From an uncultured Tabrizicola sp. (GTDB lineage: Bacteria; Pseudomonadota; Alphaproteobacteria; Rhodobacterales; Rhodobacteraceae), in NCBI GenBank assembly GCA_964393035.1, contig CAYMRX010000003.1, positions 212,846 to 276,845 on the forward strand: a stretch of DNA of 64,000 nt. The letters run 5' to 3'. The first letter of the stretch is position 1. Each line of letters begins with the position of its first letter. A model generated the notes under the pieces. The model had not been told where the DNA came from, searched no databases, and saw only the letters and a list, made by a program, of their open reading frames with translations. Made by a program: the position numbers and the translations under genes. Positions 372 through 15,407 of the stretch are shown one piece after another.

Positions 372-381
372 TCCGTCCCCC

Positions 382-1727: not shown

Positions 1728-3160
1728 CGCGGAACCTCGTAGCTTAGATACATGGTCTTGTATTCCAGATAGCTTTCCACGCCGTAGCGCCCCTTTTCGC
1801 GGCCAAGCCCGCTTTCCTTGACGCCACCGAAGGGTTCATAATGCGAGGAGCGCTGAATGTCATTCAGCCAGACCGACCCGGCCTCCATCCCCTCGCACAG
1901 GGTCAGGCCACGGGCGAGATCGCGGGTAAAGACAAAGCCCGCAAGGCCATAGCGGTTGTCATTGGCAAAGGCCAAGGCTTGCCACGGGTCGCCCACCGGG
2001 CAAATGCCCAAGACCGGACCAAAGGTTTCTTCCGTCAGCACCAGCATGTCATGTGTGGCATCGGCCACCAGCGTCGGCTGATAATAGAACCCGCCGTCAA
2101 ACCCCGGCCCCGTCTGCCGTTGCCCGCCACAGAGGATGCGCGCGCCCTTGGTACGGGCGTCGTCGACCTGGATGGCGGAGTTGGCGTAGATCTTTTCATT
2201 GACCAAGGGGCCAAGATCACCCTCACCGCCTACCGGCGCGAGGGTGAATGTCTGCACCCTTGCCAACAGCTTTTGCAGGAAGCGGTCATAGACCGGGCGC
2301 TCGACGTAAATGCGGTTGACCCGATAGCAGAACTGGCCGGAATTGGCGAAACCGTGGCGGGCAATCGCCTCGGCGGCCTTGTCGATATCGGCATCGGCGC
2401 AGACGATGGCGGCAGATTGGCCGCCCAGCTCCAGCGTCACGCGCTTCATGGTTTGAACGGCGGCGGCGGCGATGGCCTTGCCTGCGCTGGTGCCGCCGGT
2501 GAAGGCTATCTTGCGGGGGACCGGGTGGTTGACCAGCGCATCGCCAATCGCCCGACCTGCACCGGTGACGACGTTGAACACACCGGCAGGCAGGCCCGCC
2601 TTGTAGAAAATCTCGGCCAGAAGCAGCGTTGAAGTCGGCGTGTCAGCGGAAGGTTTGGCGACCACGGTGCAACCGGCGACCAGCGCGGCCCCGAGTTTGA
2701 ACATCAAAAGGTTCAGCGGATAGTTGAACGGCGTGATCGCCACCACGACACCCACCGGATCGCGCGTCACGATGGTCTTTTCGCCAACCCCTCCGCTTGT
2801 CATATGCGCTTGCAGCCGCAGGCCTTCTTCGGCGTAGATGTCCAGCAGATCCGCAGCGCGCGCCACTTCTTGCAAGCAGGCAGGCAAAGGGCGGCCAAGT
2901 TCCTTGTGCAGTGCACCGCCCACCAGATCGGCGGCCTCGCGCATCGCCTGCGCCAGCCGCTTTTGCAGCCTCACGCGGTCGGCCATCGGCACCTGCCGCC
3001 AGCTTGCAAAGGCGCGTTGCGCAGAACGGATGGCGATATCAGCATCTTCGGCACCGCCCTGCGGCACGGTGTCAAAGACGGCACCAGAGCGCGGATCAGT
3101 CACGGGTTGCGTGGCACCGCTGACAGCGGGCGCCCAGCGCCCTTCGATGAACATTTCCAT
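1724..3160 (-). CDS. NAD(P)-dependent aldehyde dehydrogenase
   Basis: 478 aa. ALDH hallmarks: ELGGQS and the catalytic-Cys context NSGQFCY. Confidence 0.92.
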   Translation of the reverse strand: MEMFIEGRWAPAVSGATQPVTDPRSGAVFDTVPQGGAEDADIAIRSAQRAFASWRQVPMADRVRLQKRLAQAMREAADLVGGALHKELGRPLPACLQEVARAADLLDIYAEEGLRLQAHMTSGGVGEKTIVTRDPVGVVVAITPFNYPLNLLMFKLGAALVAGCTVVAKPSADTPTSTLLLAEIFYKAGLPAGVFNVVTGAGRAIGDALVNHPVPRKIAFTGGTSAGKAIAAAAVQTMKRVTLELGGQSAAIVCADADIDKAAEAIARHGFANSGQFCYRVNRIYVERPVYDRFLQKLLARVQTFTLAPVGGEGDLGPLVNEKIYANSAIQVDDARTKGARILCGGQRQTGPGFDGGFYYQPTLVADATHDMLVLTEETFGPVLGICPVGDPWQALAFANDNRYGLAGFVFTRDLARGLTLCEGMEAGSVWLNDIQRSSHYEPFGGVKESGLGREKGRYGVESYLEYKTMYLSYEVPR

Positions 3161-3172
3161 GGTCAGCGCCCC

Positions 3173-3769
3173 TTAAAGCACATGCACTTTCAAAGCCTTG
3201 CGCGTTTGCGCCAAGGCTGCCGTCGCCATCGTCCGGCCCGGCTCAGTTTCAAACTTGGTCAGGATTTTCTCATTCCGCGTGCAATTCTGCGCGGGCGTCT
3301 CGCCGAACCAATCACAGCCCACGGCCGTGCCCGTCACCTCATAGCGCCACAGCTTGTCGCTATCCCGCACGATGCGATCATTGAGGTGGCGCGGGTCAAT
3401 CCGCGTATCATGGCCGTCGATGATCTCGCAGACCTGCGCGATAACGGCCTCGTTCCACCCCGTTTCGCGCAGCACGGCCGTCGCCAGTTTCACGCCCTCG
3501 GCCTCGTGGCGATAGCGCACATCGGATTGCAGGATATTCTCGCCCCGGAACCCGTCCGAAATGATCGTCTCCATGTCGATCGCCCACCAGCCGATATCAT
3601 GCAGAAGGATCGCCAGCAGGCAGACATCGCGGTCGGCCTGCGGAAAATGCTCCAACAGCCGCGCGCACCAGTCGAAGGACAGGGGGATATGCACATCGTT
3701 CTTGCGCGCCCGCATATAGGGTTCTGCGGCGCGCCAGACCGGGTCATAGCGCGAAAGGTCGTGCGTCAT
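3173..3769 (-). CDS. HD-domain metal-dependent protein, paralog 1
   Basis: Start set at the internal ATG (MTHDLSRYDPVW...) by alignment with the paralog N-terminus (MSLLRPEDEPLW...). Motifs DVHIP, LLHDIGW, RYRHEAEG, IIDGHDT, RDSDKLW. Confidence 0.75.
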   Translation of the reverse strand: MTHDLSRYDPVWRAAEPYMRARKNDVHIPLSFDWCARLLEHFPQADRDVCLLAILLHDIGWWAIDMETIISDGFRGENILQSDVRYRHEAEGVKLATAVLRETGWNEAVIAQVCEIIDGHDTRIDPRHLNDRIVRDSDKLWRYEVTGTAVGCDWFGETPAQNCTRNEKILTKFETEPGRTMATAALAQTRKALKVHVL

Positions 3770-3823
3770 CGGTTTGGTCCGTTTTGGGCAGGGGTGGGGG
3801 GGCATTGCTGCCCCCCAATGCAT

Positions 3824-5635
3824 TCAATCAAGGATCGTCACGGTGCCGGTGTTGCCATCCACCCGCAGCCGCATGCCGGTCTTGATCTTGGCCGTCGCGG
3901 TGCCGGTGCCGGTCACGGCGGGCAGGCCGTATTCGCGGCAGACGATGGCGGCGTGGCTCATCATGCCGCCGATGTCGGTGACGGCTGCGGCGATCTTGCC
4001 AAAGACCGGGGCCCAGGACGGCGCGGTGACGGGCGTGACCAGAATCTCGCCCTTTTGCAATTCGCCCAACTGGTCGGGGCTGCGCAGAACCCGGGCGATG
4101 CCTTCGACAGCCCCCGGCGCTGCTGCCATCCCCTTCAGGCCACCGGACTCATCCCCCTTGCCCGTCCAGCGGTCAATGGCGTCCGAGGTGATGCCCCAGA
4201 GCATGATGGTGAAGGGTTCGGTGATGACCTCGGGCGGATCGTTCAACGCGGGCAGCGGCGGCTGGCTGGCCAAGGCCGACACCAAGACACGGCGTCGGGC
4301 AACCTCGGCCGGCCAGATGGCCGAACCGACATTCGGCGTGCCAATCGCCCAAGCCGCGCCGTAATCCCACAGCACATCGCGCACCTCGTTGCGGTTGAGG
4401 TAGAACATGCCGTCCTCATCCGGCCAGAAGCCCGCCTCAGACAGCATCTTCGACAATTCCCGCATCTTGCGCCAGAACACGCCCAGCGCCCAATGTTCGA
4501 TATAGAAGTTGTGGTCTTCCACGTAAGGGAACACGGTGCGCGCCAGGCCCAGCTTGCCGTCAAACACGGCCTGCGCCTCCTCATCCATCATGTCGCGGTA
4601 TTCTTCGGTGATCCGGTCACGCTCTTTCAACAACCGCTCGGTCGGGCGCTCGATCTGCTCGCCCGCCTTGGCGCGCGGGATATAGTCGCGCAGATACCCC
4701 AGCGGAATATCGAGATGGTCGATCCAGTATTTGTCGGTCGAATAGAAGCCGTTGCCGGAGGTAAAATTGAACCACGGATCCTGCGCGGCCTTCCACGCGG
4801 CCAGCCACTTGGCCCCGTTCGGTGCTTTGCCGACAGCGGCCAAAGCCTCATCCACCGAACCGGTCATCAGCGCGCCATCCACGCCAAGTTCCACCGCCAG
4901 ACGGGCCAGTTTCTTGATCTCGTCATCGGGGCGGAACAGCTCGCTGTCCACACCCTGCACCATCTTGGCAATCGCCTGATCTGGAATGGTGGGGAATTGC
5001 GATTTCACGAAACCGAAGAAATCCAGATAGGCCGCATAGCCCAGATTCAGGAATTCGAAGTGGTATTGCCAAGTCTTGTAGCTGAGTTCGATCAGCTTGT
5101 CGTAGGCCTCGAAAATCGCGTTGGTGTTGTCCAGCCCGACGCCACCCTTGACCCAATCCACCGGCACGACATCCGGCAATTCGGTGAAGGAAATCGCGCT
5201 CATCTGCGCGATCATGTCCATGACCTTGGTCTTCCAGTTGGCCAGAAGATCGTTCCAGTTCATGAAGTAATGCCCGGCGCGGTCCAGAAACTGCGGGATG
5301 CGGGCCTCGATGTTTTCGGGGGCCACGGCCACCGGGCTGAAATAGACGAACCCGTTCAGGATGCGGTAGTCGATGCCGTTGGCGGGCGGCACCAGAAGAT
5401 GGCGGCTATTGTATTGGCCAAGGCATTTGATCGCGAAATCAAGGAAGATCACATCGAACGGGCGCAGCGGCGTCGGCCAGTGCTGGCTGTTGCAGAACCA
5501 GAACTTTTCGTCGTCCTCCTTGCGGCGCGAGGGCTGGAACTGGGTGTAATAGGGGTAAAGCCCCTCCCAGCCTTCCGCCCCCTTCGGTGCCTTCACATCA
5601 AAGGCACTGGGGAACATCGGGGTCTTGGCGTCCAT
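3824..5635 (-). CDS. PEP-utilizing enzyme with C-terminal swivel phospho-histidine domain (PpsA-like large subunit of a split PEP synthase/phenylphosphate synthase-type enzyme)
   Basis: 603 aa. The C-terminus GEILVTPVTAPSWAPVFGKIAAAVTDIGGMMSHAAIVCREYGLPAV is a typical PEP-utilizer mobile domain with the catalytic His. Strong RBS AGGGAGGAAA. Confidence 0.85.
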   Translation of the reverse strand: MDAKTPMFPSAFDVKAPKGAEGWEGLYPYYTQFQPSRRKEDDEKFWFCNSQHWPTPLRPFDVIFLDFAIKCLGQYNSRHLLVPPANGIDYRILNGFVYFSPVAVAPENIEARIPQFLDRAGHYFMNWNDLLANWKTKVMDMIAQMSAISFTELPDVVPVDWVKGGVGLDNTNAIFEAYDKLIELSYKTWQYHFEFLNLGYAAYLDFFGFVKSQFPTIPDQAIAKMVQGVDSELFRPDDEIKKLARLAVELGVDGALMTGSVDEALAAVGKAPNGAKWLAAWKAAQDPWFNFTSGNGFYSTDKYWIDHLDIPLGYLRDYIPRAKAGEQIERPTERLLKERDRITEEYRDMMDEEAQAVFDGKLGLARTVFPYVEDHNFYIEHWALGVFWRKMRELSKMLSEAGFWPDEDGMFYLNRNEVRDVLWDYGAAWAIGTPNVGSAIWPAEVARRRVLVSALASQPPLPALNDPPEVITEPFTIMLWGITSDAIDRWTGKGDESGGLKGMAAAPGAVEGIARVLRSPDQLGELQKGEILVTPVTAPSWAPVFGKIAAAVTDIGGMMSHAAIVCREYGLPAVTGTGTATAKIKTGMRLRVDGNTGTVTILD

Positions 5636-5677
5636 TTGCGTTTCCTCCCTGAAACGGACTTTTGGTTGGACCGTGCG

Positions 5678-6742
5678 TCAGCGCTTCACGGTCAAGGCTG
5701 AATTCAGCGTGCCGACGATCCCCATCATGCCGGTTGCATAGGTCTTTTTCGGGGTTTCGGTCTTTTTCTGGCTCCAGATCGTCTCGGGCCGCGATTGCAG
5801 CGCGAGAAGGTTTTCACCCTCGGGCAGATCGGCGTCGATCGCCCATTCCACGTCCTGCGGGCATTTGTTCTGCCGCTCCAGCCGCTTGGCCAAGGCGGCC
5901 ACGGCGACCACCTCGGCATCGGTCAGGCATTGGCGGTGGCGACGGTCAGCGGACACCTCGCGCTCCACCGCCTCACCGGCCTCGGCGTCGCCCACAAGTT
6001 CGACATGCTTGTCTGAAATCTTGCGGTCGATGATTTCCATCAGCACTTTTTCAACGGTGAAATTGTCAGGCGTCACCACGCCCGAGACCACCATTTCGCC
6101 CAGGCCCCAGGAGGCATCGATCACGATCTTGGTCCGGTCGCCGTTCACCGGGTCCAGCGACATCACCACACCGGCGGCGCGGGCGTTGACCATCTTCTGC
6201 ACGCCGACACTCATCAAAACGTCGATATGCGGGATGCGGTTCTTCTCGCGGTAGGCCACGGCGCGGGTGGTATAAAGCGAGGCCCAGCAATCGCGGACCT
6301 TCTCCACCACCTGATCGGCCCCGCGCACCCAAAGGTAGGTGTCTTGCTGGCCGGCAAAGGACGCGTCCGGCAGGTCTTCCGCCGTAGCAGACGACCGCAC
6401 GGCCACGGGCATATCATCGCCCATCGCGGCATAGGCGGCGCGGATATCAGCCTCAACCTGCGGCGGCAGTTTGTGGCTGCGGATACGGATGCGGATGGCT
6501 TGGGCGGCGCGGTCGATCTGATCGATGTCGAAGGGGTCCACGCCCGCCAGATGGCGTTCGATTTCAGCTTTCATGCCGTGGTGATCCAGCATCGCCTGAT
6601 AGGCTTCGGTGGTCACCGCAAAGCCCGGCGGCACCGCCACCCCGGCCTGTGTCATTTCGCCCAAACTGGCGCATTTGCCGCCGACGCGGGCGAAATCGGC
6701 ATGGCTGATGCGGCTGAAATCCAGCGTGTAAAGGTCGCTCAT
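5678..6742 (-). CDS. PEP/pyruvate-binding ATP-grasp domain protein (PpsB-like small subunit)
   Basis: 354 aa. The N-terminus VGGKCASLGEM...GVAVPPGFAVT is typical of the PPDK/PEP synthase nucleotide-binding domain. The start overlaps the P450 stop by 4 nt. Confidence 0.85.
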   Translation of the reverse strand: MSDLYTLDFSRISHADFARVGGKCASLGEMTQAGVAVPPGFAVTTEAYQAMLDHHGMKAEIERHLAGVDPFDIDQIDRAAQAIRIRIRSHKLPPQVEADIRAAYAAMGDDMPVAVRSSATAEDLPDASFAGQQDTYLWVRGADQVVEKVRDCWASLYTTRAVAYREKNRIPHIDVLMSVGVQKMVNARAAGVVMSLDPVNGDRTKIVIDASWGLGEMVVSGVVTPDNFTVEKVLMEIIDRKISDKHVELVGDAEAGEAVEREVSADRRHRQCLTDAEVVAVAALAKRLERQNKCPQDVEWAIDADLPEGENLLALQSRPETIWSQKKTETPKKTYATGMMGIVGTLNSALTVKR

Positions 6743-7995
6743 TTGCCCGCCCCTGTTTTCCCCGTCTCCACCATCACCGATTGCGGCACGCGGAAGCCAA
6801 GGTTGCGGTGGTATTGCGCCTCGAACCCGTCCACCAACTTCATGTCAGGGAAGCGTGCGGGGAGTTGTTTGAACAGTTCCGTGGCCTCCATCTTGGCAAG
6901 CTGGAAGCCAAGGCAGTAGTGGATGCCATAGCCAAAGGACAAATGGGTGCGGGCATTGCTGCGCGTCAGGTTCAGCTTTTCGCCATCGGGGAATTGCGCC
7001 TCATCCCGGTTGGCAGACCCTGTAATCATCAGGATTTCCGCGCCCTCCGGCAGGTCCACCCCGCCGACCGTGGTGGCGTGGCGGGCCTTGCGGCGCCAGC
7101 CGATGACCGAAGGGGTAAAGCGCAGCATTTCCTCCACCGCATTGGGGATCAGCGCCGGATCGGCCTTCAACTGCTCCCAGGCGTCGCGGTGCTGCATGAT
7201 GGTCAGCACATAATTGCCCATGAAGGTCGAAGTTGTCTCGTGCCCCGCGAATAGCGTGGAATAAAGCACGCCCGCAATTTCCTCATCGCTGATCTCGGCG
7301 CCCTCGGCCTGCAAGCGCAAAAGGTCGGACGGAAAGTCATCGCCCGGCGTCTTGCGGCGCATGTCCAGCAGATCGTGGATGTATTTCCAATAGGCCACCA
7401 TGTCATGGGCCACCTCGACCTGTTCGTCGTCGGTCAGCTCGCCCCATGTCATCTTGCCCCGGCTGGCGCCGTATTGCTTGATCTTCGGTACATCCTCGTC
7501 CGGGATGCCCATCAGGGTGAACAGCACATAGGCCGGCACCGGATAGGCGACCACTTCCCAAAAATTCACCGGGCCGCCTGCGCCCTGCGCCTCCAACTGG
7601 TCGAGATGGCGGCGCACGATGCCTTCGATCTGCGGCTGGATCGACTTGAACCGGCGCGGGCCAAAGCAGGACTGCGCCACCTTGCGGATACGGGTATGAT
7701 CGGGGGGGACGCGGGCGGTCAGGCCGGAATAGGCGGTGAAGCCGCCATCCGTCAGAACCTTGCGCCCCGCTTCGCACATCGCCCGCACGGGCTTTTGCGC
7801 GTTTTCGGAACTGAAGGTCTTGTAGTCGTCGAAAATCGCCTTGATGTCGTCATAGCGCGTCACCACCCAATAATTGGTGGCTTCGTGAAAGAAGATCGGT
7901 TCTTCGCGGCGAAGCTCGGCCCATTTGGCATGGGGTTTGTTCAGATCGAACGGGTCAAAGCCGTCGGCCGGCGTGGCGCCTGCGTGGTCCTTCAT
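6739..7995 (-). CDS. Cytochrome P450 monooxygenase
   Basis: 418 aa. Heme-binding loop FGYGIHYCLG, I-helix AGHETT, ExxR (EEMLR). RBS AGGGAGGA. Confidence 0.93.
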   Translation of the reverse strand: MKDHAGATPADGFDPFDLNKPHAKWAELRREEPIFFHEATNYWVVTRYDDIKAIFDDYKTFSSENAQKPVRAMCEAGRKVLTDGGFTAYSGLTARVPPDHTRIRKVAQSCFGPRRFKSIQPQIEGIVRRHLDQLEAQGAGGPVNFWEVVAYPVPAYVLFTLMGIPDEDVPKIKQYGASRGKMTWGELTDDEQVEVAHDMVAYWKYIHDLLDMRRKTPGDDFPSDLLRLQAEGAEISDEEIAGVLYSTLFAGHETTSTFMGNYVLTIMQHRDAWEQLKADPALIPNAVEEMLRFTPSVIGWRRKARHATTVGGVDLPEGAEILMITGSANRDEAQFPDGEKLNLTRSNARTHLSFGYGIHYCLGFQLAKMEATELFKQLPARFPDMKLVDGFEAQYHRNLGFRVPQSVMVETGKTGAGK

Positions 7996-8077
7996 CGCGG
8001 TATCCTCCCTATGATGTCCGGCCGCTCTCTCCCAAAAGCTGAGCCTGACATGTTGAGAATCAGCCTAAGTCCGCTGG

Positions 8078-8094
8078 CTTTGGTTTTTCTTTGG
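8078..8094 (-). promoter_or_regulatory. Direct repeat CCAAAG-AAAAA-CCAAAG (11-nt periodicity) upstream of the P450 operon; candidate SARP-type activator site
   Basis: The plus strand reads CTTTGGTTTTTCTTTGG. On the coding (minus) strand it lies 83-99 nt upstream of the P450 ATG. It matches the repeat at 9616-9632 at 16 of 17 positions. Confidence 0.4.
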
Positions 8095-8120
8095 CGGTTT
8101 TCACGGCAGGCGAAAAACCG

Positions 8121-9566
8121 TCACCCCACCTTGGAGAGATCTCGATAAAGTGATTTGATTTCAATACCTTCTCTGGCACCTATCGCCTCCAACGCGGCGC
8201 GGTATTGCCGATACTGTCGATGCATGGCGTCCAACCGGCCTTGGGCGACGAAGATTTTCATGGCCTCGGCATTGGCCCCTTCGCTGGCCGGGTCAATCGC
8301 CAGCGCCTTTTGGCAATGGGCCAGCGCCTCGCGGGTGCGCCCCGAGGACATGCAAACCTTGGCAAAGTCATACTGCAATTTCACCGCCATTTCGCGCAGC
8401 CAGATCCGGCGCGGCATGCACCAATCGTCGGTTTCCGAGCGCACATATTCCAGCGGCAAATCTTCAAACAATTCACCGCCGTAAAGCTGGTCGGCGGCGG
8501 CATAGACGCGCAAGGCCGCGTTCAACTCGCCGCGCTTGTAAAGCGACAGGCCCCGGCGGCAAAGCTGCTCGAACGTGTCAATGTCGATCCAGCTTCCGGG
8601 CGGGGCTTTCAGCCGGTAGGTCTCGCCCACCCGCTCCACAGCCGCCGCGTCGCCCAGCGTCTTGCGCAGCATGGCAACCGTGTGGTGCAGACGGGTGCGC
8701 TTCAAATCCTCTGATTCGCCCTCGGGCCAGAGAAGTTCGCCCAACTGGTCGGCATGCGCCCCCTTGTCGCCGCTTTGCAAAAGATAGGCAAAGAGCGTGC
8801 GGGTCTTTTTCGGCGCGCCACCGGGAAGCTGCCAGTTCACCTCTTGCCCGCCGATCAATACCTTGAGCCGCCCAAGGCAATGCACATGCCAGCGCAAGCC
8901 CCCCACCGGGTTGCCAAGCCCCGCGCGTGGCGGCGCGAGCCATGACGGCGTGGCCCCGCGCGCAAACATCTGCCCCTGCTGGCGGCGTGCCAAAAGCCCG
9001 GCATAATCGGGAACCACCCGGCCCAGCATGAACGAAAGCTGTTCATCCAAAGCACCCCCTTCCAAGAGGCTGGCCGGAATCCAATACGGGTTTTCATAAA
9101 GGCCAGAGGGCGCCAGAAACTGCCGGTGCGCCCGCAGCGCCGCCTGAATCTGCTCCTCGATCGTCAGATCCTGATTGTAGAGCGACACCACCGGCAGGTT
9201 GAAATGCGCCGCCAGCCGGTCGGCCACCCCGCCCCAGTTTTCCAGCCCCGCAACGCCCTGCATATTACCAACGACCCAGCCCATATCGACCACCAGCGCC
9301 GCGATACCCTTGGCGGTGCCCAGCTCTTGTCGCAGCCGCACGAAGGCTTCCTCGGGGTCCATCGGCGCATGATCCAGCCCCACCTCGGCAAAGCCGATCC
9401 GCCGCGCGGCGGGCATATCCGGCAAAAGGCGTAAATCGTCACTGACCAGCCAGGTCTTTGCCGGGGTCGCCAATTGGCCCAGCGCCTTGGCCACAAAACC
9501 CGGCACCGCGAAATCGGCAATCAAGGCGGCATTGATGCGTTCTGCGGCTTTGGGTTTGCGCGGCAT
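8121..9566 (-). CDS. Transcriptional regulator: N-terminal MEDS-like sensory domain, winged-helix DNA-binding domain and BTAD/TPR domain (SARP/AfsR-DnrI type)
   Basis: Start set at the internal ATG (MPRKPKAA) with a GGAGG RBS. The middle segment LGRLKVLIGGQEV...RTLFAYLL...QLGELLWPE...LHHTVAMLRKTL...YRL is wHTH-like. The C-terminus with DIDTFEQL...ALRVY...GELFEDLP and TPR-like helices is BTAD-like. The N-terminal ...VVSLYNQDL...ALRAHRQFL...YENPYW resembles MEDS. Confidence 0.8.
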   Translation of the reverse strand: MPRKPKAAERINAALIADFAVPGFVAKALGQLATPAKTWLVSDDLRLLPDMPAARRIGFAEVGLDHAPMDPEEAFVRLRQELGTAKGIAALVVDMGWVVGNMQGVAGLENWGGVADRLAAHFNLPVVSLYNQDLTIEEQIQAALRAHRQFLAPSGLYENPYWIPASLLEGGALDEQLSFMLGRVVPDYAGLLARRQQGQMFARGATPSWLAPPRAGLGNPVGGLRWHVHCLGRLKVLIGGQEVNWQLPGGAPKKTRTLFAYLLQSGDKGAHADQLGELLWPEGESEDLKRTRLHHTVAMLRKTLGDAAAVERVGETYRLKAPPGSWIDIDTFEQLCRRGLSLYKRGELNAALRVYAAADQLYGGELFEDLPLEYVRSETDDWCMPRRIWLREMAVKLQYDFAKVCMSSGRTREALAHCQKALAIDPASEGANAEAMKIFVAQGRLDAMHRQYRQYRAALEAIGAREGIEIKSLYRDLSKVG

Positions 9567-9614
9567 GGGCCCTCCGATTTCTTTGGGAAATCTATAATAA
9601 GTGCGCCTTAAAAG

Positions 9615-9676
9615 TCCAAAGAAAATCCAAAGGTAACTTGTTAAGCTGATTCGGAGAAGACCTTGGAAAACCAAGG
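9615..9676 (+). promoter_or_regulatory. Divergent control region: TCCAAAG-AAAA-TCCAAAG direct repeat (9615-9632) and CCTTGG-AAAA-CCAAGG inverted repeat (9661-9676)
   Basis: An AT-rich stretch lies between the regulator start (9566) and the GMC oxidoreductase start (9796). The repeat period is 11 nt. A related inverted half-site CTTTGGG sits at 9581-9587. Confidence 0.4.
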
Positions 9677-9795
9677 CTGGGAGGTTCTGACGGAAATCAT
9701 GGGTCCGGCGTTTTGCCGGGGCGGTGGCGCTTTGCGGCCAGTGCAATCATGCCCCATGCCGGATGGCCCCCACGAGAGGGGAGAGAACGCGGCGC

Positions 9796-11382
9796 ATGTC
9801 CGATTTGGGTCAGTTCGATTACGTCATCGTCGGCGCCGGATCTTCCGGGGCGGTCTTGGCCAATCGTCTCTCCGCCGATCCGCGCCTGACCGTCTGCCTG
9901 ATCGAGGCGGGGCCTGCCGACCGCAGCCCTTTCATCACCGTGCCTTTGGGGGTGATGAAGCTGTCGAAGGATGCGCGGCACAACTGGCTTTACACAACCG
10001 CGCCGCAAACCGGATTGGAAGGCCGCGAAATCTCGGTGCCGCGCGGCAAGGTGCTGGGCGGGTCTTCGGCGATCAACGGCATGATCTACATCCGCGGCCA
10101 TCGGGCGGATTACGACGCTTGGGCCGCGGCGGGTTGCACCGGCTGGGGGTATGAGGATGTTCTGCCGCATTTCCGCCGGTCAGAGAACAACCGCCGGGCG
10201 GGGATCGACACCCACCACCACGGCACAAGCGGGGAATTGGCGGTCGCAGACCTGCGCGATGTGAATCCGGTCGATCACGACTTCATCGCGGCGGCGGCTG
10301 AATTGCAACTTCGCCCCTGCCCCGATTTCAACATGGCCGAACCCGAGGGCATGGGCATCTATCAGGTCACGCAAAAGGACGGAAAACGCCATTCGACGGG
10401 CCGCGCCTTTCTGACGGCGGCGGTCAAGGCACGGCCGAACCTGCATATCCTGACCGGGGCCGAGGTGCTGGGCCTGACACTGGCCGACAGGCGCGCGACG
10501 GGCGTTGCCCTGCGCCGCGCCGGGCGGGTGGAGACGGTTCGCTCTCGGGGCGAGGTGATCTTGTCGGCGGGTGCCATCGGTTCGCCCGATATCCTTCTGC
10601 GCTCAGGGATAGGGGCCGGGCTGGCGCATCACCTGCCCGGCGTCGGGCAGAACCTGCAAGACCATGTCGATTGCATGGTGATCTGCCAAAGCCGTTCGCG
10701 CACGCCTTATGGCATTTCCATTCCCGCCCTGCCGCGTCTGGCGCTGGAGGGGGCGAAGTGGCTCATCGGCAATCGCGGCATGCTGTCGTCGAACATGGTG
10801 GAGGCGGGGGGCTTTGTGCGCAGCTCACCGGCCGAGGATCGCCCCGACATCCAGTTCCACATCATTCCGGGGCGCAAGAGCCACCGGGGGCGGATGGTGG
10901 AATATGGCCACGGGGTTTCGGTGCATACTTGCGTCTTGCGCCCCGAAAGCCGGGGATCCGTCAGCCGCACCACCCCAACCGGCGCTCCGGTGATCGACCT
11001 TGGCCTTTTGACCGATGACCGCGACATGGTTCGGCTGCTGAAAGGTGTCAAACTCGCCCGCCAAATTCTGCGGCAAGGCCCGATGGCCCGGCATGGCCTG
11101 ACCGAAATCATCCCCGGCAACGGCGTGGAAAGTGACGAATCCCTGCGCGCCTATGTCCGCGCCAATGCCCGCACCGTCTATCACCCGGTCGGCACCTGCG
11201 CGATGGGAACCGGACCTTTGGCCGTGGTTGACCCGCGCCTGCGTGTCCATGGCCTCCGGGGCCTGCGCGTGGTCGATGCCTCGATCATGCCGACCATCGT
11301 AAGCGGGAACACCAATGCCCCCGCCATCATGATCGCCGAGAAAGCCGCCGAGATGATCCTTGAGGACCGCAAGTCGGCCTGA
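9796..11382 (+). CDS. GMC-family FAD oxidoreductase (choline/alcohol dehydrogenase-like)
   Basis: Start at the internal ATG (MSDLGQFDYVIVGAGSSGAVLANRLS, the FAD GxGxxG site). Also GGSSAINGMIY and C-terminal GMC motifs (HPVGTCAMG). Confidence 0.92.
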   Translation: MSDLGQFDYVIVGAGSSGAVLANRLSADPRLTVCLIEAGPADRSPFITVPLGVMKLSKDARHNWLYTTAPQTGLEGREISVPRGKVLGGSSAINGMIYIRGHRADYDAWAAAGCTGWGYEDVLPHFRRSENNRRAGIDTHHHGTSGELAVADLRDVNPVDHDFIAAAAELQLRPCPDFNMAEPEGMGIYQVTQKDGKRHSTGRAFLTAAVKARPNLHILTGAEVLGLTLADRRATGVALRRAGRVETVRSRGEVILSAGAIGSPDILLRSGIGAGLAHHLPGVGQNLQDHVDCMVICQSRSRTPYGISIPALPRLALEGAKWLIGNRGMLSSNMVEAGGFVRSSPAEDRPDIQFHIIPGRKSHRGRMVEYGHGVSVHTCVLRPESRGSVSRTTPTGAPVIDLGLLTDDRDMVRLLKGVKLARQILRQGPMARHGLTEIIPGNGVESDESLRAYVRANARTVYHPVGTCAMGTGPLAVVDPRLRVHGLRGLRVVDASIMPTIVSGNTNAPAIMIAEKAAEMILEDRKSA

Positions 11383-11439
11383 CCAAAGCCGGGCCATGGG
11401 AGGGCCCGGAAAACCGAAACCAAACGGGAGGAAACGCTG

Positions 11440-12693
11440 ATGAACCTGAAGAACGGATTGGCCGGGGCCGTCGCCCTCGCCTTCACTTGCATCGCGGGGG
11501 CCGCCTTTGCCGCGCCCTCATGCGGGGCGAACACGGGGCAGGCCGCAACCGGCGCCCCGATCATTGTGGGCGGGATCTACTCCAACGGCGCGCCGGGCGA
11601 CTGGTCTTCGTCCACCGACGCGGCGGCGGCCTATTTTGCCTGCGTGAACGCCAATGGCGGCATCAACGGCCGACCGATTGAATACCATGTCGAGGATGAC
11701 CAATGGAACCCCGAGGCCGCAGCGGCGGCAGCGGCCAAGCTGGTGAATGACCAAAAGGCCGTCGCCATGGTCGGCAACGGCTCTTTCACCGAAATGGCCG
11801 TCAACGCGCAAACCTATGTTGACCAAGGCATCATGGCGATGGCCAGCGCCTGCGCGATTTCGGAATGCTTTGAAACGCCGAACCTTGTGTCCACCAACCA
11901 AGGCCCGCTCGCCTCGAACCTTGGTGCCGCGCAATATGCGCAGGAGGAACTTGGGTCCAAGAACGTCGCCTGCATCGGGCTGAACATTCCGAACAACGGC
12001 ATCTGGTCGTGTCAGGCGGTCATCGACTACATGACGTCGAAAGGCGGCACCGGCAGCATGGCCATGCTGAACCCCGGCGCGCCGGATGTGAACTCGGCCC
12101 TGCTGGAGGCCGTGGCTTCGGGCGCGGATACGATCCTGATGAACCTGCCCGCTGGCCTTGCGCTGGCTGTGCTGAAGGCCGCCCAGGAACAGGACCTGCG
12201 CGACAGCTACACCTGGATCGCGCCGACGCCGCTTTATGACCTGTCGGTGCCGGATGCGGTGGGCGACTACTGGCACGGCAAGATCTGGGTCAACGCCGAG
12301 CTTGCGCCGATCAATCAGGGCGGGCCGGACGGGCAGAACTGGCTGGCGGTTCTGGACACCTTCGGCAAGGCCGACGATCCGCGCGACACCTTCAGCCAGG
12401 CCGGTTACCTTTCGGCGCAGTTCTTCGTGAAGGCGCTGCTGGAGATGGACCCGGCGGGCCTTGATGACCGCGCCGCCGTGACGGCGGCGATCAAAGGGAT
12501 CAAGGGCTACACCTCGGATCTGATGTGCGGCCCCTATTATGTCGGCGACGCCGCCTTCCACCAGCCGAACCACGCGGGCCAGATGGTCAAGGTCGTGGCC
12601 GGTGGCTTCGAGGTTGTGCGCCCCTGCTATGAATATGACAGCGCCTATTTCGACCGCCACAAGGACGTCGAAAAATCCTTGGGCATGAACTGA
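11440..12693 (+). CDS. ABC transporter periplasmic substrate-binding protein, LivK/branched-chain amino acid-type fold
   Basis: 417 aa. Signal peptide MNLKNGLAGAVALAFTCIAGAAFA, then a type I periplasmic binding pattern (IIVGGIY...GGINGRPIE...). GAGGAAA RBS. Confidence 0.88.
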   Translation: MNLKNGLAGAVALAFTCIAGAAFAAPSCGANTGQAATGAPIIVGGIYSNGAPGDWSSSTDAAAAYFACVNANGGINGRPIEYHVEDDQWNPEAAAAAAAKLVNDQKAVAMVGNGSFTEMAVNAQTYVDQGIMAMASACAISECFETPNLVSTNQGPLASNLGAAQYAQEELGSKNVACIGLNIPNNGIWSCQAVIDYMTSKGGTGSMAMLNPGAPDVNSALLEAVASGADTILMNLPAGLALAVLKAAQEQDLRDSYTWIAPTPLYDLSVPDAVGDYWHGKIWVNAELAPINQGGPDGQNWLAVLDTFGKADDPRDTFSQAGYLSAQFFVKALLEMDPAGLDDRAAVTAAIKGIKGYTSDLMCGPYYVGDAAFHQPNHAGQMVKVVAGGFEVVRPCYEYDSAYFDRHKDVEKSLGMN

Positions 12694-12751
12694 GCAATCC
12701 TAGCCCCCGGCCTGACCTTGGCTGGGGGTTTTCCCCTATCGCGGAGCCAGC

Positions 12752-13708
12752 ATGACGCGCAGCGCAATATTGAACGGGGTGATCTATGCCGTCCTGATGG
12801 TCGGCATTTGGGTCACGCTGGCGGGCGGCATGCCGTTCAAGGTGACGGGCATGTTCCTTGCCTCGGGCCTTGCCATCGGTTCGCTTTACGCCTTGGGCGG
12901 GATTGGCATGGTGGTGCTGTATCGCGCCTCGGGTGTCTTGAATTTCTCGGCCGGGGCCGCCGGGGCGGCAGGCGCAATGACCGCGTGGCAATGCGTGCAA
13001 TGGGGTCTTTGGCCCCCCTTGGGTTGGGCCGCCTGTATCGCCGTCGCCCTTGCGCTGACTTTGGCCTATGGCCGATACCTTGCGCCCCTTCTGGCGTGGC
13101 GCGAAACCGTGGTGAAAGCGGTCGCCACCCTTGGCTTTGCCCTTATCATTCTGGGTCTTGTCTCTTTCATCTGGATCGACGACCCTCGAAGTCTTGAATT
13201 GCCCACCGATCAAACCGGCGTGGTGCTGTTCGGCTTGCGCGTCACCGCCACCCGACTGATTGCCTTTGCCGCCGCCATCGCCATTGTCATCGCCATCTGG
13301 GCCTTCCTTGGTCGCACCGAAGTGGGCTTGCAGATGCGCGCCGTCGCCAATTCGCGCGACCTGTCGGCGCTGCTTGGCATCCCCATTCGGCGGGTGGAAA
13401 CCATCGCCTGGGGCATCTCGGGCCTCTTGGCAGGCTTCACCGGGCTGATGTTCGCCAACCTGATCCGGCTTGAACCTGTGGTCATCACCTTCATGGTCAT
13501 CCCCTCCATCGCAGCGGCCCTCGCGGGCAGGCTGAACTCGCTGGCGCTTGTGCTGGTCGGAGGCCTGTCGATGGGCGTCATCGAGAGTCTGCTGACGCTC
13601 TCGCCCACCCTGAAAGGGGTCCGCCCCATCGCGCCCTTCGTCATCGCCGCCCTTGTCCTGCTGTGGAGCCAGCGCGGCACCAAACTCACCTTCGGAGGGC
13701 GCGACTGA
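12752..13708 (+). CDS. ABC transporter permease (LivH-like)
   Basis: 318 aa polytopic membrane protein in an SBP-permease-permease-ATPase-ATPase operon. Confidence 0.88.
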   Translation: MTRSAILNGVIYAVLMVGIWVTLAGGMPFKVTGMFLASGLAIGSLYALGGIGMVVLYRASGVLNFSAGAAGAAGAMTAWQCVQWGLWPPLGWAACIAVALALTLAYGRYLAPLLAWRETVVKAVATLGFALIILGLVSFIWIDDPRSLELPTDQTGVVLFGLRVTATRLIAFAAAIAIVIAIWAFLGRTEVGLQMRAVANSRDLSALLGIPIRRVETIAWGISGLLAGFTGLMFANLIRLEPVVITFMVIPSIAAALAGRLNSLALVLVGGLSMGVIESLLTLSPTLKGVRPIAPFVIAALVLLWSQRGTKLTFGGRD

Positions 13709-14691
13709 TGGACCGTTCGCTCATCCGCCTTACCCCGTCCGGCGTCTCTGGCCTGATCTTTGCGGGCCTGTGCTTTGTCTTCCTGCCCCTGCTGGCAGGG
13801 TCATACTGGCTGTCGGTCTTCACCTCGGCGGCGATCTTTGCCATGGCGATTTCCGGCGTCGCTTTCATGTATGCCCGGCTTGGCATGGTCAGCCTGACCC
13901 AAGTCGGCCTGATGGGCATCGGCGGCTGGGTGACGCTGCGGCTGAACCATCTGTGGAACTGGCCGTTCGAGGTGAACATGGTGCTGGCCGCCCTTGCCAC
14001 CATGATCTGCGGCTGGGTCCTTGCCCTGCCTGCGCTCAGGATGCGCGGGCTTTACCTCGCCCTTGTCACGCTGATGGCCGCAGGGGGGCTGGAGATCCTG
14101 TTTGCCACCTATCAATTCCCCAATGGCGGCGCAGGGTTCTGGGGCGTCAAGATCGGCTCGACCGAGCCGTTCCGCCGCCCGGTTCTGGCGCAATCGCCCG
14201 AGGCTTATCTGCGCTACTGCATCGGCATTGCCACGCTTGGCTTTCTGTTCATCGAAGGCCACCGCCGCCTGTTTCCCGGCCGGGCCTGGGCACTGATCCG
14301 GCGCAGTGAGGCCGCCGCCATGGCCGCGGGCGTCAATGTCACGCTGTACAAAACCTGGGCCTTTGGCATCGCCGGCGCGATTGCCGGGGCGGCGGGTGCG
14401 CTGCTTGCAGGATCGCTTGGGCTTTTGGATGACGGCACCTTCCGGTCGTCAGAATCCATCATGCTGTTTGCCCTTGCCGTGGTTGGCGGGGCGCGGTTCT
14501 GGCTGGGCGCGGTGATCGCGGCGTTCCTGTTCCGCATCCTGCCGGGCCTGCTGAACACATGGGGCGTCGATACCGATCTGGCCTTTGTGATCTTCGGTGC
14601 GGGATTGTTGCACGCGCTTATCACCGCGCCAAACGGGATCGCCGGGCAGGTCCATGACCTGATCGCCAAACTGCGGGGGGCCAAACCATGA
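13708..14691 (+). CDS. ABC transporter permease (LivM-like)
   Basis: Start at the internal ATG (MDRSLIRL), overlapping the upstream TGA by 1 nt (TGATG). Polytopic membrane protein. Confidence 0.85.
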   Translation: MDRSLIRLTPSGVSGLIFAGLCFVFLPLLAGSYWLSVFTSAAIFAMAISGVAFMYARLGMVSLTQVGLMGIGGWVTLRLNHLWNWPFEVNMVLAALATMICGWVLALPALRMRGLYLALVTLMAAGGLEILFATYQFPNGGAGFWGVKIGSTEPFRRPVLAQSPEAYLRYCIGIATLGFLFIEGHRRLFPGRAWALIRRSEAAAMAAGVNVTLYKTWAFGIAGAIAGAAGALLAGSLGLLDDGTFRSSESIMLFALAVVGGARFWLGAVIAAFLFRILPGLLNTWGVDTDLAFVIFGAGLLHALITAPNGIAGQVHDLIAKLRGAKP

Positions 14692-15407
14692 TCGAAATCA
14701 ACGCCGTCACCGTGCGCTTTGGCGGGCTGGTCGCCCTGAACGAGGTGTCAGCCAGCCTGACCGCCCCTGTCGCCGGGATCATCGGACCGAATGGTGCGGG
14801 CAAGACCACGCTGATGAATGTGGTTTCGGGTTTCATCACCGCGCGGTCGGGCCGGGTGATGGTGGACGGGCAGGATTTCCTGCCGCTCGCCCCGCACAAA
14901 CGCGCGCACAGAGGGCTTCGGCGGTCGTTCCAGAAAGAACAGATCGCCGATGATCTGACGGTGCTGGAAAACGTGCTGGTGCAAACCGACTGGTCGCTGA
15001 CGGGCGCGCGCACCAAGCGGGCCGAGGCGATGGAGATGCTGGCGCTGGTGGGCCTTGCCGATCGCGCCGGCACGCTGGGGGCGGCGCTGTCGGGGTTCGA
15101 ACGCCGCCTGACCGATGTCGCCCGCTGCATGGTCGGGCAACCCCGGCTTATCATGTTCGACGAACCGGCAGGCGGGATGAGCGTTGAGGAAACCTCCCGG
15201 CTGGGCGATCTGATCGTGCAAATCCACGACCACACCGGCGCGCAGACGGTCATCATCGACCATGATGTCGAATTGATCCGCCGCATCTGCGCCGAAACGC
15301 TGGTTCTGGACTTTGGCCGCCGCATCGCCTTTGGGCCGACGGCAGCAGTGCTGGCCGACCCCAAGGTCAAGGCCGCCTATCTTGGAACCGAGGAGATCGC
15401 CCCATGA
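14688..15407 (+). CDS. ABC transporter ATP-binding protein (LivG-like)
   Basis: Walker A GPNGAGKTT and Walker B LIMFDEPAGG. 4-nt overlaps with both neighbours. Confidence 0.92.
   Translation: MIEINAVTVRFGGLVALNEVSASLTAPVAGIIGPNGAGKTTLMNVVSGFITARSGRVMVDGQDFLPLAPHKRAHRGLRRSFQKEQIADDLTVLENVLVQTDWSLTGARTKRAEAMEMLALVGLADRAGTLGAALSGFERRLTDVARCMVGQPRLIMFDEPAGGMSVEETSRLGDLIVQIHDHTGAQTVIIDHDVELIRRICAETLVLDFGRRIAFGPTAAVLADPKVKAAYLGTEEIAP

What the first reader, a model, noticed from the sequence alone, without database searches (positions are those of the whole stretch)
8078..9676. MEDS-like/SARP-type regulator with near-identical 11-nt-period CCAAAG direct repeats in front of both flanking operons
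The 481-aa regulator combines an N-terminal region resembling the MEDS sensory domain with a winged helix and a BTAD/TPR domain. MEDS is the DcmR-type domain associated with sensing small hydrocarbon-like or methylated compounds. The wHTH plus BTAD layout is that of Streptomyces antibiotic regulatory proteins. SARPs are known to bind direct repeats spaced one helical turn (11 nt) apart, overlapping the -35 region. Such a repeat occurs twice. CCAAAGAAAAACCAAAG lies on the minus strand at 8094-8078, upstream of the P450 operon. CCAAAGAAAATCCAAAG lies on the plus strand at 9616-9632, pointing toward the GMC oxidoreductase/ABC importer operon. The two copies match at 16 of 17 positions. Related half-sites are CTTTGGG (9581-87) and CCTTGG-N4-CCAAGG (9661-76). 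This ties the two operons into one putative regulon covering uptake, oxidation, and P450/Pps chemistry. A MEDS-SARP fusion in an alphaproteobacterium is itself uncommon.
Basis: partly seen in the sequence, partly recalled or inferred. Interest (0 to 1): 0.62.

Follow-up and report, generated by a model that had tools for sequence, protein, structure and literature searches.

The report
SARP-like regulator and its conserved operator
A Streptomyces-type (SARP) transcription activator with an extra N-terminal sensor-like domain sits in a Rhodobacteraceae genome, and its predicted DNA site, CCAAAG repeated 11 bases apart, lies just upstream of the promoters of the two flanking operons for alkylphenol (cresol-type) breakdown and stays letter-for-letter the same in every related genome examined.

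Summary
The 481-aa protein (8121-9566, minus strand) has a remote MEDS-like N-domain, a disordered linker, and a SARP module (winged helix plus BTAD/TPR) whose predicted fold best matches AfsR and EmbR.

The 17-mers at 8078-8094(-) and 9616-9632(+) are the only two sites in the 3.64-Mb genome that fit the composite pattern. That pattern is CCAAAG, an AT-rich 5-mer, CCAAAG, then 9-10 nt and TANNNT.

Across 301 genomes of the same family (300 genera), the regulator and the exact 17-mer co-occur in 12 of 13 carriers. Only 1 of 288 non-carriers has the 17-mer (Fisher p = 2e-19). The site always lies directly upstream of the CreJ-like P450 operon. Where a divergent GMC oxidoreductase/ABC (or MFS) operon is present, a second copy usually lies in front of it. 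The site stays identical down to about 45% regulator identity while its flanks diverge.

The geometry matches the SARP rule: direct repeats about 8 nt upstream of -10, taking the place of a -35 element.

One is a leader hairpin with compensatory changes. The other is conserved only in close relatives.

Binding, transcription starts, the sign of regulation and the ligand remain untested. I class this as a new variant of a known kind, of moderate interest.

The parts
8121..9566 (-). Regulator gene, 481 aa: MEDS-like N-domain, linker, SARP winged helix, BTAD/TPR
   Evidence: Translation. Pfam. Fold matches to AfsR and EmbR.
9012..9566 (-). N-terminal domain (residues 1-185): alpha/beta, remote MEDS homologue, weakly RecA/KaiC-like fold, no GK[ST] P-loop motif seen by eye
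   Evidence: Domain model with pLDDT 89.8 and pTM 0.86. Fold hits to RecA, Sak4, Elp456 and KaiC at E 5e-3 to 0.1. hhalign against true MEDS domains gives 91% probability, E 9e-7.
8898..9011 (-). Low-confidence linker (about residues 186-223)
   Evidence: pLDDT below 50 for residues 182-223 in the full model.
8589..8897 (-). OmpR/SARP-type winged-helix DNA-binding domain (about residues 224-326). The presumed recognition helix KR(T/A)RLHHTVAMLRKTLG is nearly invariant in the family.
   Evidence: Alignment A1. Fold match to the AfsR and EmbR DNA-binding domain plus BTAD. Weak Trans_reg_C hits. That this helix is the recognition helix is my inference.
8124..8588 (-). BTAD/TPR domain (residues 327-481)
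   Evidence: PF03704, E 1.6e-14, residues 327-476.
8078..8094 (-). Box 1: CCAAAGAAAAACCAAAG, two direct CCAAAG units at an 11-nt period, 27 nt after the regulator stop and 83 nt before the P450 start codon
   Evidence: Conserved in 23 of 23 orthologous loci with at most 1 mismatch, and also in the distant loci L038 and L039.
8057..8067 (-). Predicted -10 of the P450 operon promoter: TAGGCT (8062-8067) followed by GATTC, 10 nt after box 1
   Evidence: The TA..(G/C)T columns are conserved in the anchored alignment of 21 non-redundant sites. No -35-like hexamer is found. This is a prediction; no transcription start was mapped.
51..7995 (-). Target operon 1: CreJ-like P450, CreI/CreH-like two-part phenol dikinase, HD phosphohydrolases, aldehyde dehydrogenase and further genes
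Evidence: Pfam. The P450's best PDB matches are 5xjn and 5gwe at E 1e-125. Synteny with the regulator holds in every locus long enough to show it.
9616..9632 (+). Box 2: CCAAAGAAAATCCAAAG, pointing at the GMC/ABC operon, 50-66 nt upstream of the regulator's own start codon on the other strand
   Evidence: A box at this place in 19 loci. Lacking in L024-L026, which have no GMC gene, and in L022, which has one.
9642..9652 (+). Predicted -10 of the GMC/ABC operon promoter: TAAGCT (9642-9647) followed by GATTC, 9 nt after box 2
   Evidence: Anchored alignment. This is a prediction.
9591..9599 (-). Possible -10 of the regulator's own promoter. TATAGA is in register with TANNNT in the orthologues, and TATTAT overlaps it. 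It lies 16-19 nt from box 2 on the opposite strand.
   Evidence: Conserved 'TA' columns about 20 nt upstream of box 2. My reading of those sequences; not tested.
9661..9676 (+). 5' leader stem-loop CCTTGG-AAAA-CCAAGG, followed by the conserved CTGGGAGGTTCTGACGG. Not a binding half-site.
   Evidence: RNAalifold: 6 pairs, 4 of them with compensatory changes. No Rfam match.
9796..16108 (+). Target operon 2: GMC flavoprotein oxidoreductase plus a Liv-type ABC importer (Peripla_BP_6 binding protein, two permeases, two ATPases)
   Evidence: Pfam for the GMC enzyme and the binding protein. ORF list. The GMC gene is conserved divergently from the regulator, with the binding-protein gene beside it in most loci.

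Best explanation
The 481-aa protein is a one-component, SARP-type transcription activator. Two of its winged-helix domains are proposed to bind head-to-tail to the direct repeat CCAAAG-N5-CCAAAG. That repeat occupies the place of a missing -35 element, 9-10 nt upstream of a TA(G/A)NNT -10 hexamer. From there the BTAD/TPR domain would recruit RNA polymerase, as AfsR does.

The same box stands in front of two promoters:
- the Cre-like alkylphenol operon (P450, phenol dikinase, HD phosphatases, aldehyde dehydrogenase);
- the divergent GMC oxidoreductase/ABC importer operon.

In this genome the regulon is therefore just these two operons. The N-terminal MEDS-like domain, joined by a flexible linker, is the likely input module. 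It would switch the activator on in response to a pathway substrate or intermediate, such as an alkylphenol or its aryl phosphate. Box 2 also overlaps the -35 region of the regulator's own divergent promoter, so some autoregulation is likely.

Shown here: the domain architecture; the uniqueness, position and deep conservation of the box; its co-occurrence with the regulator and operon; the lack of a -35 consensus.

Inferred: binding by this protein, activation rather than repression, the -10 elements and transcription starts, the ligand, and autoregulation.
For: Architecture:
- BTAD at E 1.6e-14.
- Fold matches to AfsR and EmbR, E 5e-8 to 4e-7.
- MEDS homology at family level.

Site:
- It is exact at both places.
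- Only two sites in the genome fit the composite pattern.

Co-occurrence across 301 genomes of the family:
- The regulator is in 13, the exact 17-mer is in 13, and 12 overlap.
- The reversed control pattern is found in 0 of 301.
- Fisher p = 1.8e-19.
- The one carrier without an exact site (G206) has a 1-mismatch site in the expected place.

Position:
- The box lies directly upstream of the P450 gene in 23/23 loci and upstream of the GMC gene or the regulator in 19.
- It is followed by TA...T after 9-10 nt.
- Information content is near maximal over the 17-mer and near zero in the flanks.

The box follows the promoter, not the regulator's 3' end:
- In L021 an extra 239-aa gene separates the regulator from the P450, and the box stays next to the P450.
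- In different orthologues the called regulator ORF reads through the box in three different frames, giving the tails QRKTK, KEKPK and PKKNQ. What is conserved is therefore the DNA, not a peptide.

Distant members:
- L038, with 35% N-domain identity, keeps the identical box.
- The 551-aa member in L039 keeps CCAAAG-N5-CCAAAG with a different spacer.

Promoter context:
- No sigma-70 -35/-10 consensus occurs in either intergenic region. This is as expected for activator-dependent promoters.

Literature:
- SARP boxes are direct repeats about 8 nt upstream of -10 that overlap -35, and two DNA-binding domains bind them side by side (PMC11301090).
- They are heptameric repeats that overlap the -35 region (PMC10972967).
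Against: No binding, footprint or transcription-start data exist. The public RNA runs hold only fragments from relatives and give no 5' ends.

The regulator and the P450 operon always travel together. Co-occurrence therefore cannot separate 'site of this regulator' from 'site of another factor tied to the operon'.

Sequence-only similarity to solved SARPs is marginal: AfsR at E 0.99 with the family profile. The wHTH assignment rests on a model of moderate confidence (pLDDT 72.7; 60-87 across the DNA-binding domain).

The spacing to the predicted -10 is 9-10 nt after the hexamer, which is 8-9 nt if the unit is counted as a heptamer. It is not uniformly the canonical 8.

The MEDS match covers only half of the domain, and this protein is itself below Pfam's cut-off. 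A sensing role for MEDS is itself only a prediction (PMC11507031).
Confidence: 0.78

Rival explanations
1. The protein binds the same boxes but acts mainly as a repressor. It would block RNA polymerase at the -35 position until an inducer releases it.
For: The box overlaps the -35 position of all three putative promoters. A few SARPs are reported as repressors (table in PMC10972967). Box 2 sits inverted about 19 nt from the putative -10 of the regulator's own promoter, a position that could give autorepression.
Against: Neither target promoter has a recognisable -35 hexamer. The bases at the -35 position would read AAGAAA, so an activator is needed. The geometry is that of the AfsR-type activation complex. 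BTAD is an activation domain that is conserved in 29/29 members.
Confidence: 0.1
2. The conserved 17-mer is a promoter or operator element for a different factor that travels with the Cre-like operon, such as an alternative sigma factor or another regulator. The adjacent SARP-like protein would then bind elsewhere.
For: Co-occurrence cannot separate the regulator from the operon, because they are always linked. Some loci carry a LysR gene nearby.
Against: No other regulator gene is consistently present in the cluster. A direct repeat at an 11-nt period, at a fixed short distance from -10, is the hallmark of OmpR/SARP-type binding and not of a sigma -35 element. The near-invariant helix that I take to be the recognition helix parallels the invariant site. 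The second box goes with a different operon (GMC), whose only link to the P450 operon is that both flank the regulator gene.
Confidence: 0.07
3. The two 17-mers resemble each other by chance, or are low-complexity A-rich intergenic sequence with no function.
For: With up to 1 mismatch, CCAAAG-N5-CCAAAG is no more frequent than its reversed control in this genome (46 against 38).
Against: The two sites are unique in the genome under the composite pattern. The 17-mer is identical in 12 of 13 regulator-bearing genomes of different genera and in 1 of 288 genomes without the regulator. The reversed control is found in 0 of 301. The flanks are not conserved.
Confidence: 0.01

Closest known systems
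Streptomyces antibiotic regulatory proteins (SARPs): AfsR SARP module, ActII-ORF4, DnrI, RedD; also Mycobacterium tuberculosis EmbR
   Same: An OmpR-type winged helix is directly followed by a BTAD/TPR domain. The best fold matches are AfsR and EmbR. The predicted target is a direct repeat at an 11-nt period, about 8-9 nt upstream of the -10 and replacing the -35.
   Different: The host is an alphaproteobacterium (Rhodobacteraceae/Paracoccaceae), not an actinobacterium. The target is a catabolic pathway with its importer, not a biosynthetic gene cluster. The extra domain lies N-terminal to the DNA-binding domain, whereas in small, medium and large SARPs the SARP module is N-terminal and the extras are C-terminal. 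There is no NB-ARC/ATPase domain. Sequence similarity is very low (17-22% identity in the structural alignments).
MEDS-domain regulators (DcmR of Methylobacterium; EtnR2-type sensors; MEDS-HTH proteins)
   Same: The N-domain aligns with the C-terminal half of MEDS, including the DMxW, (C/S)xY and terminal His motifs. It sits in a regulator of a pathway for a small organic substrate.
   Different: The homology is remote and this protein is below Pfam's cut-off. The first MEDS motif (HxCxFY) and the conserved Cys are missing. The output module is SARP, not a simple HTH or a histidine kinase. No ligand is known for either.
Cre pathway of Corynebacterium glutamicum (CreHI dikinase, CreJ P450 and partners) and related phenol dikinase pathways (HpeHI, PpsAB)
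   Same: The regulated operon encodes a P450 whose best solved relatives are 5xjn and 5gwe, at E 1e-125. From memory, these are CreJ. It also encodes a split PPDK_N and PEP-utilizers dikinase of the CreHI/HpeHI/PpsAB type, an HD phosphohydrolase and an aldehyde dehydrogenase.
   Different: This comparison concerns the targets, not the regulator. I found no report of a SARP-type regulator for the Cre or Hpe pathways in the held literature. From memory, the C. glutamicum cluster has a regulator of another family; this is unverified.

Membership tests
SARP (AfsR/DnrI/RedD) family | OmpR-type winged-helix DNA-binding domain | tested here: met
   Fold matches to AfsR 8hvr/8k60 and EmbR 2ff4/2fez cover the DNA-binding domain plus BTAD, E 5e-8 to 4e-7. 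Trans_reg_C is weak (E 0.09 here; 12/29 members at E<=0.1, best 2.5e-4). NCBIfam BagI/FevR SARP model at E 5.7e-5.
SARP (AfsR/DnrI/RedD) family | BTAD (bacterial transcriptional activator domain) directly after the DNA-binding domain | tested here: met
   PF03704 at E 1.6e-14, 55 bits against a cut-off of 22.1, residues 327-476. Present in 29/29 family members.
SARP (AfsR/DnrI/RedD) family | SARP module at the N-terminus, with any extra domains C-terminal | tested here: not met
   A 185-aa domain and a roughly 40-aa linker precede the DNA-binding domain. All three SARP classes in the review have an N-terminal SARP module (PMC10972967).
SARP (AfsR/DnrI/RedD) family | Target sites are direct repeats at a 10-11-nt period, overlapping -35, about 8 nt upstream of -10 | tested here: inconclusive
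   The sequence geometry fits: CCAAAG-N5-CCAAAG, then 9-10 nt, then TANNNT, conserved in 42 sites. The -10 is predicted only, and no transcription start or binding data exist.
SARP (AfsR/DnrI/RedD) family | Physical binding of the protein to the repeats and activation of transcription | not testable with these tools
   Needs EMSA or footprinting, reporter assays and a deletion mutant.
SARP (AfsR/DnrI/RedD) family | Actinobacterial host and control of secondary metabolism (the customary scope of the name) | tested here: not met
   The relatives are Tabrizicola, Cypionkella, Neotabrizicola, Maritimibacter, Pararhodobacter and Rhodobacteraceae MAGs. The targets are catabolic and uptake genes.
MEDS domain (PF14417) | Match to the Pfam model above its curated cut-off | tested here: inconclusive
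   This protein scores 18.1 bits against a cut-off of 29.8, E 0.0024. At family level 21/29 members hit at E<=0.1, best 2.5e-7. The distant member P0137 scores 31.4 bits, above the cut-off. hhalign against seven true MEDS domains gives 91% probability and E 9e-7, but over the C-terminal 89 columns only.
MEDS domain (PF14417) | Conserved motifs of true MEDS domains (HxCxFY at the start; DMxW; CxYD; terminal His) | tested here: inconclusive
   DMxW (D94 M95 W97), SxY(N/D) (S128 Y130) and H147 are kept and invariant or nearly so. The first motif and both conserved Cys are absent.
MEDS domain (PF14417) | Sensing of a small hydrocarbon-derived ligand | not testable with these tools
   This is only a literature prediction for MEDS. 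Testing it needs ligand-binding assays.

The most novel reading that the evidence does not exclude
This would be a SARP lineage outside Actinobacteria, not yet described in the literature I could search. In it the activation module is gated by an N-terminal, catalytically dead RecA-like/MEDS-type domain that senses an alkylphenol or its aryl-phosphate intermediate. One 17-bp box would serve two back-to-back promoters in opposite orientations. It lies 9 nt from the -10 of the GMC operon and about 19 nt, one helical turn further, from the -10 of the regulator's own gene. A single bound dimer would thus activate the catabolic and uptake operons and set its own level. If true, this gives a compact, orthogonal activator/operator pair and a ready biosensor for cresol-type phenols.
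Probability: 0.35. Interest if true: 0.62.

Novelty: new variant of a known kind. Interest (0 to 1): 0.5.

Why it matters
SARPs are studied almost only as switches of antibiotic production in actinomycetes, and little is known about how small SARPs are controlled.

This small family has 13 carriers among 301 Rhodobacteraceae genomes and 56 cluster representatives among 1.84 billion. It offers several things:
- a SARP module in a Gram-negative host;
- a plausible dedicated input domain;
- a two-promoter regulon;
- a sharply defined operator. All three can be tested directly in a cultured isolate (Tabrizicola oligotrophica KMS-5 carries a 92% identical copy).

It also supplies the missing regulatory layer for the phosphate-guided (Cre-type) alkylphenol pathway in Alphaproteobacteria. 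It links that pathway to a GMC oxidoreductase and a Liv-type ABC importer, which are thereby candidates for the alcohol-oxidation and uptake steps.

In practical terms, the regulator/box pair is a candidate part for cresol or alkylphenol biosensors.

Tried and rejected
- Rfam scan of 7900-9900 at a permissive threshold found only noise (E 0.2-1.4), so the leader hairpin is not a known RNA family.
- Sequence searches of the PDB, with the single protein and with the family profile, were dominated by designed TPR proteins. AfsR appeared only at E 0.99. Fold comparison was needed.
- The consensus sigma-70 promoter scan found 0 sites in 7950-9850. I read this as activator dependence, not as absence of promoters.
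- Transcription-start mapping was not possible. Only DNA metagenomes hold the stretch. RNA runs hold 5-14% of the words, and the contigs laid on it are fragments from relatives with no informative ends.
- The fold search with the N-domain alone gave only weak RecA-like matches (best E 4.8e-3, TM about 0.45). This is suggestive, not proof.
- The 'related half-sites' were rejected. CCTTGG-N4-CCAAGG changes to CCCCGG/CCGGGG and other forms in orthologues while keeping its pairing. CTTTGGG at 9581-9587 is kept only in the four closest relatives and is CCCACAG in L010.
- I looked for further regulon members in this genome with a relaxed pattern and found none.
- An upstream small ORF starting at ATG 9699 was rejected. 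Reading the aligned leaders by eye, the ATG shifts frame between orthologues (WIN and L012).
- The lone variant box in G106 (CCAAAGAAAAGCCAAAG, no regulator in that genome) was taken as a chance hit.
Full report
**Observation.**
- The minus strand of 8078-8094 is CCAAAGAAAAACCAAAG.
- The plus strand of 9616-9632 is CCAAAGAAAATCCAAAG.
- The ORF 8121-9566 on the minus strand encodes 481 aa.
- Box 1 lies 27 nt after the regulator's stop codon and 83 nt before the start of the co-directional P450 gene (6739-7995).
- Box 2 lies in the divergent intergenic region between the regulator (start 9566) and the GMC oxidoreductase gene (start 9796).

**Chance.**
- The window's genome (3.64 Mb, 62.5% G+C) holds five exact CCAAAG-N5-CCAAAG.
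- About 0.3 are expected from base composition and about 2.4 from the hexamer's own frequency. The other three have GC-rich spacers.
- With one mismatch allowed the pattern is no commoner than its reversed control (46 against 38). So it is these two copies, not the hexamer pair in general, that stand out.
- Two of five random hits falling within 1.6 kb of each other has a chance of about 0.009.
- A relaxed composite pattern allows up to 2 mismatches in the half-sites, an AT-rich spacer, and TANNNT 8-10 nt downstream. It returns only these two places in the whole genome.
- The 12-mer TTA.[GC][CT]TGATTC that follows both boxes also occurs only there.

**The protein.**
- Pfam gives BTAD (E 1.6e-14) and TPR repeats. 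MEDS scores only 18.1 bits, below its cut-off of 29.8. NCBIfam gives a weak SARP (BagI/FevR) hit.
- An AlphaFold model built on 29 homologues has pLDDT 72.7. Residues 182-223 are a low-confidence linker.
- Its best fold matches in the PDB are the SARP modules of AfsR (8hvr, 8k60) and EmbR (2ff4, 2fez), E 5e-8 to 4e-7 over about 260 columns. Residues about 224-481 are therefore a SARP winged helix plus BTAD.

**The N-domain.**
- Modelled alone, residues 1-190 fold with high confidence (pLDDT 89.8, pTM 0.86).
- That model resembles RecA-type folds only weakly: Sak4, RecA, Elp456, KaiC and Psy3-Csm2, E 5e-3 to 0.1, TM about 0.45.
- I see no GK[ST] P-loop motif in the sequence.
- At family level 21 of 29 members hit MEDS at E<=0.1, best 2.5e-7.
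- A distant member, P0137, passes the curated cut-off with 31.4 bits.
- A profile of 20 N-domains aligns with a profile of seven true MEDS domains, taken from other alphaproteobacterial genomes. The probability is 91% and E is 9e-7 over 89 columns.
- That alignment matches DMxW, (C/S)xY(D/N) and the final His.
- Only the C-terminal half aligns. The HxCxFY motif and the conserved cysteines of true MEDS domains are missing.
- I therefore call it a remote MEDS homologue.

**Comparative evidence for the boxes.**
- Ten orthologous loci were found in Tabrizicola, Cypionkella and Rhodobacteraceae/Paracoccaceae MAGs, with regulators 68-96% identical. All carry box 1, exact in nine and with a G in the spacer in L014. 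All carry box 2 in the same places and orientations, with one mismatch in L010. The flanks diverge.
- Three more distant loci (53-56% identity: Maritimibacter, Pararhodobacter, one metagenome) show the same.
- I then sampled 301 genomes of the same taxonomic family (300 genera). The regulator (E<=1e-40) is in 13, the exact CCAAAGAAAANCCAAAG is in 13, and 12 overlap. The reversed control pattern is in none. Fisher p = 1.8e-19.
- The one carrier without an exact site (G206) has a one-mismatch site at the expected place. The one non-carrier with a site (G106) has a variant spacer.
- In every locus long enough to show it, the order is regulator, P450, PPDK_N protein, PEP-utilizers protein, HD, aldehyde dehydrogenase (the last is missing in L026). 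The box lies directly upstream of the P450 gene, even at 44-50% regulator identity.
- Anchored alignments of 23 P450-side and 19 GMC-side sites show near-maximal information over the 17-mer, almost none in the flanks, and a conserved TA...T 9-10 nt downstream.

**Three details show that the DNA is what is conserved and that the box belongs to the promoter.**
- In L021 an extra 239-aa gene separates the regulator from the P450, and the box stays next to the P450.
- In several orthologues the called regulator ORF runs through the box in three different frames, giving the tails QRKTK, KEKPK and PKKNQ.
- The second box usually goes with the GMC operon. It is absent in three loci that lack the GMC gene (L024-L026). 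It survives as a one-mismatch copy with no TANNNT after it, perhaps a relic, in two others (L019, L028). No box 2 was found in L022, which has the GMC gene.
- Even the most distant members keep the half-sites. L038 (35% N-domain identity) has the identical 17-mer and TAGAGT-GATTC. A 551-aa member (L039) has CCAAAGAACTTCCAAAG. The CCAAAG units and their 11-nt period are thus the constant. The A-tract spacer is usual but not obligatory.

**Mechanism.**
- SARP boxes are direct repeats that overlap the -35 element and end about 8 nt upstream of the -10. Two DNA-binding domains bind them side by side on one face of the helix (PMC11301090; PMC10972967).
- Here the last G of the repeat is 9 nt (GMC side) or 10 nt (P450 side in this genome; 9 nt in most orthologues) from TANNNT. 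That is 8-9 nt if the unit is counted as a heptamer.
- The bases at the -35 position would read AAGAAA, and a consensus scan finds no sigma-70 promoter in either intergenic region.
- The most economical reading is a class-II-like, activator-dependent promoter pair driven by this protein.
- The helix KR(T/A)RLHHTVAMLRKTLG is almost invariant across the family. I take it to be the recognition helix, and its constancy fits an invariant target.
- On the other strand of box 2, a conserved TA about 20 nt away fits a TANNNT -10 for the regulator's own promoter, 19 nt from the box. Autoregulation is therefore plausible, but its sign is unknown. It is not universal, because loci without the GMC operon lack that box.

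**What is regulated.**
- The P450's best solved relatives are 5xjn and 5gwe (E about 1e-125), far ahead of the next hit at 1e-73. From memory, these entries are CreJ of Corynebacterium glutamicum.
- The PPDK_N and PEP-utilizers pair is of the CreHI/HpeHI/PpsAB two-component phenol dikinase type.
- The divergent operon adds a GMC flavoprotein oxidoreductase and a Liv-type ABC importer. By shared control these become candidates for the alcohol-oxidation and uptake steps. That assignment is my inference.

**Rarity and novelty.**
- Full-length relatives occur in 13 of 301 genomes of the family.
- They occur in none of 299 genomes sampled from other families of the class. There only the SARP half finds matches, in 11 of them (plus one further genome of the window's own family), in proteins of other sizes.
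- The N-domain finds only 56 cluster representatives among 1.84 billion, most of them full-length members or fragments.
- All distant full-length members tested keep the N-domain plus BTAD layout.
- Databases name these proteins 'AfsR/SARP family' or 'BTAD domain-containing' regulators.
- I found no experimental study of them, nor any SARP-type regulator of Cre or Hpe pathways, in the held literature.
- In the described SARP classes the SARP module is N-terminal. Here the extra domain precedes it.

- CCTTGG-N4-CCAAGG (9661-9676) is a stem-loop in the leader of the GMC operon. Four of its six pairs show compensatory changes, and it is followed by the conserved CTGGGAGGTTCTGACGG. It has no Rfam match.
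- CTTTGGG (9581-9587) is kept only in the closest relatives.

**Limits.** No binding data, transcription starts, expression data or ligand exist, and the public RNA runs were uninformative.

**Verdict.** This is a real, well-defined regulator/operator pair and a new architectural variant of the SARP kind, in an unusual host and with an unusual (catabolic) target. The mechanism is predicted with good confidence from geometry and conservation, but it has not been shown.

Noticed in passing
window 9661-9722 (+): The leader of the GMC/ABC operon has a stem-loop (9661-9676) with compensatory changes in orthologues. It is followed by the conserved CTGGGAGGTTCTGACGG and a second small hairpin, CCGGC-GTTTT-GCCGG (9705-9719). 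There is no Rfam match. It may be a 5' stabilising hairpin or an unknown regulatory leader. About 140 nt lie between the predicted start and the ATG at 9796.
   Followed up: partly
alignment A1 tails; L019 7461-7477, L020 7467-7483: In many orthologues the annotated regulator ORF runs on through the operator. The 17-mer is read in three different frames, giving the C-terminal tails QRKTK, KEKPK and PKKNQ. These tails are probably incidental to the DNA site.
   Followed up: partly
L021 7643-8362: A 239-aa gene with no Pfam hit lies between the regulator and the P450 in one metagenomic relative. The box stays with the P450 promoter.
   Followed up: no
L019 5942-5958 and L028 around 5879-5895 (minus strand): Box-like sequences (CCAAAGAAACACCAAAG and CCAAAGAAAAAACAAAG) persist upstream of the regulator in two genomes that lack the GMC operon. 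They may be relics of a lost divergent promoter or sites kept for autoregulation.
   Followed up: no
window 9591-9599 (-): A TANNNT-like hexamer on the regulator's strand lies at a fixed 19 nt from box 2 in most orthologues. [quoted passage not shown]
   Followed up: partly
L020 2876-5838: In Pararhodobacter the GMC gene under the second box is followed by an MFS transporter instead of the Liv-type ABC importer. The uptake component of the regulon is therefore interchangeable.
   Followed up: no
window 5600-10400: Metatranscriptome contigs from riverine and biofilm samples, 88-95% identical, cover parts of the P450, dikinase, regulator and GMC genes. Relatives of this cluster are therefore transcribed in nature.
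   Followed up: partly
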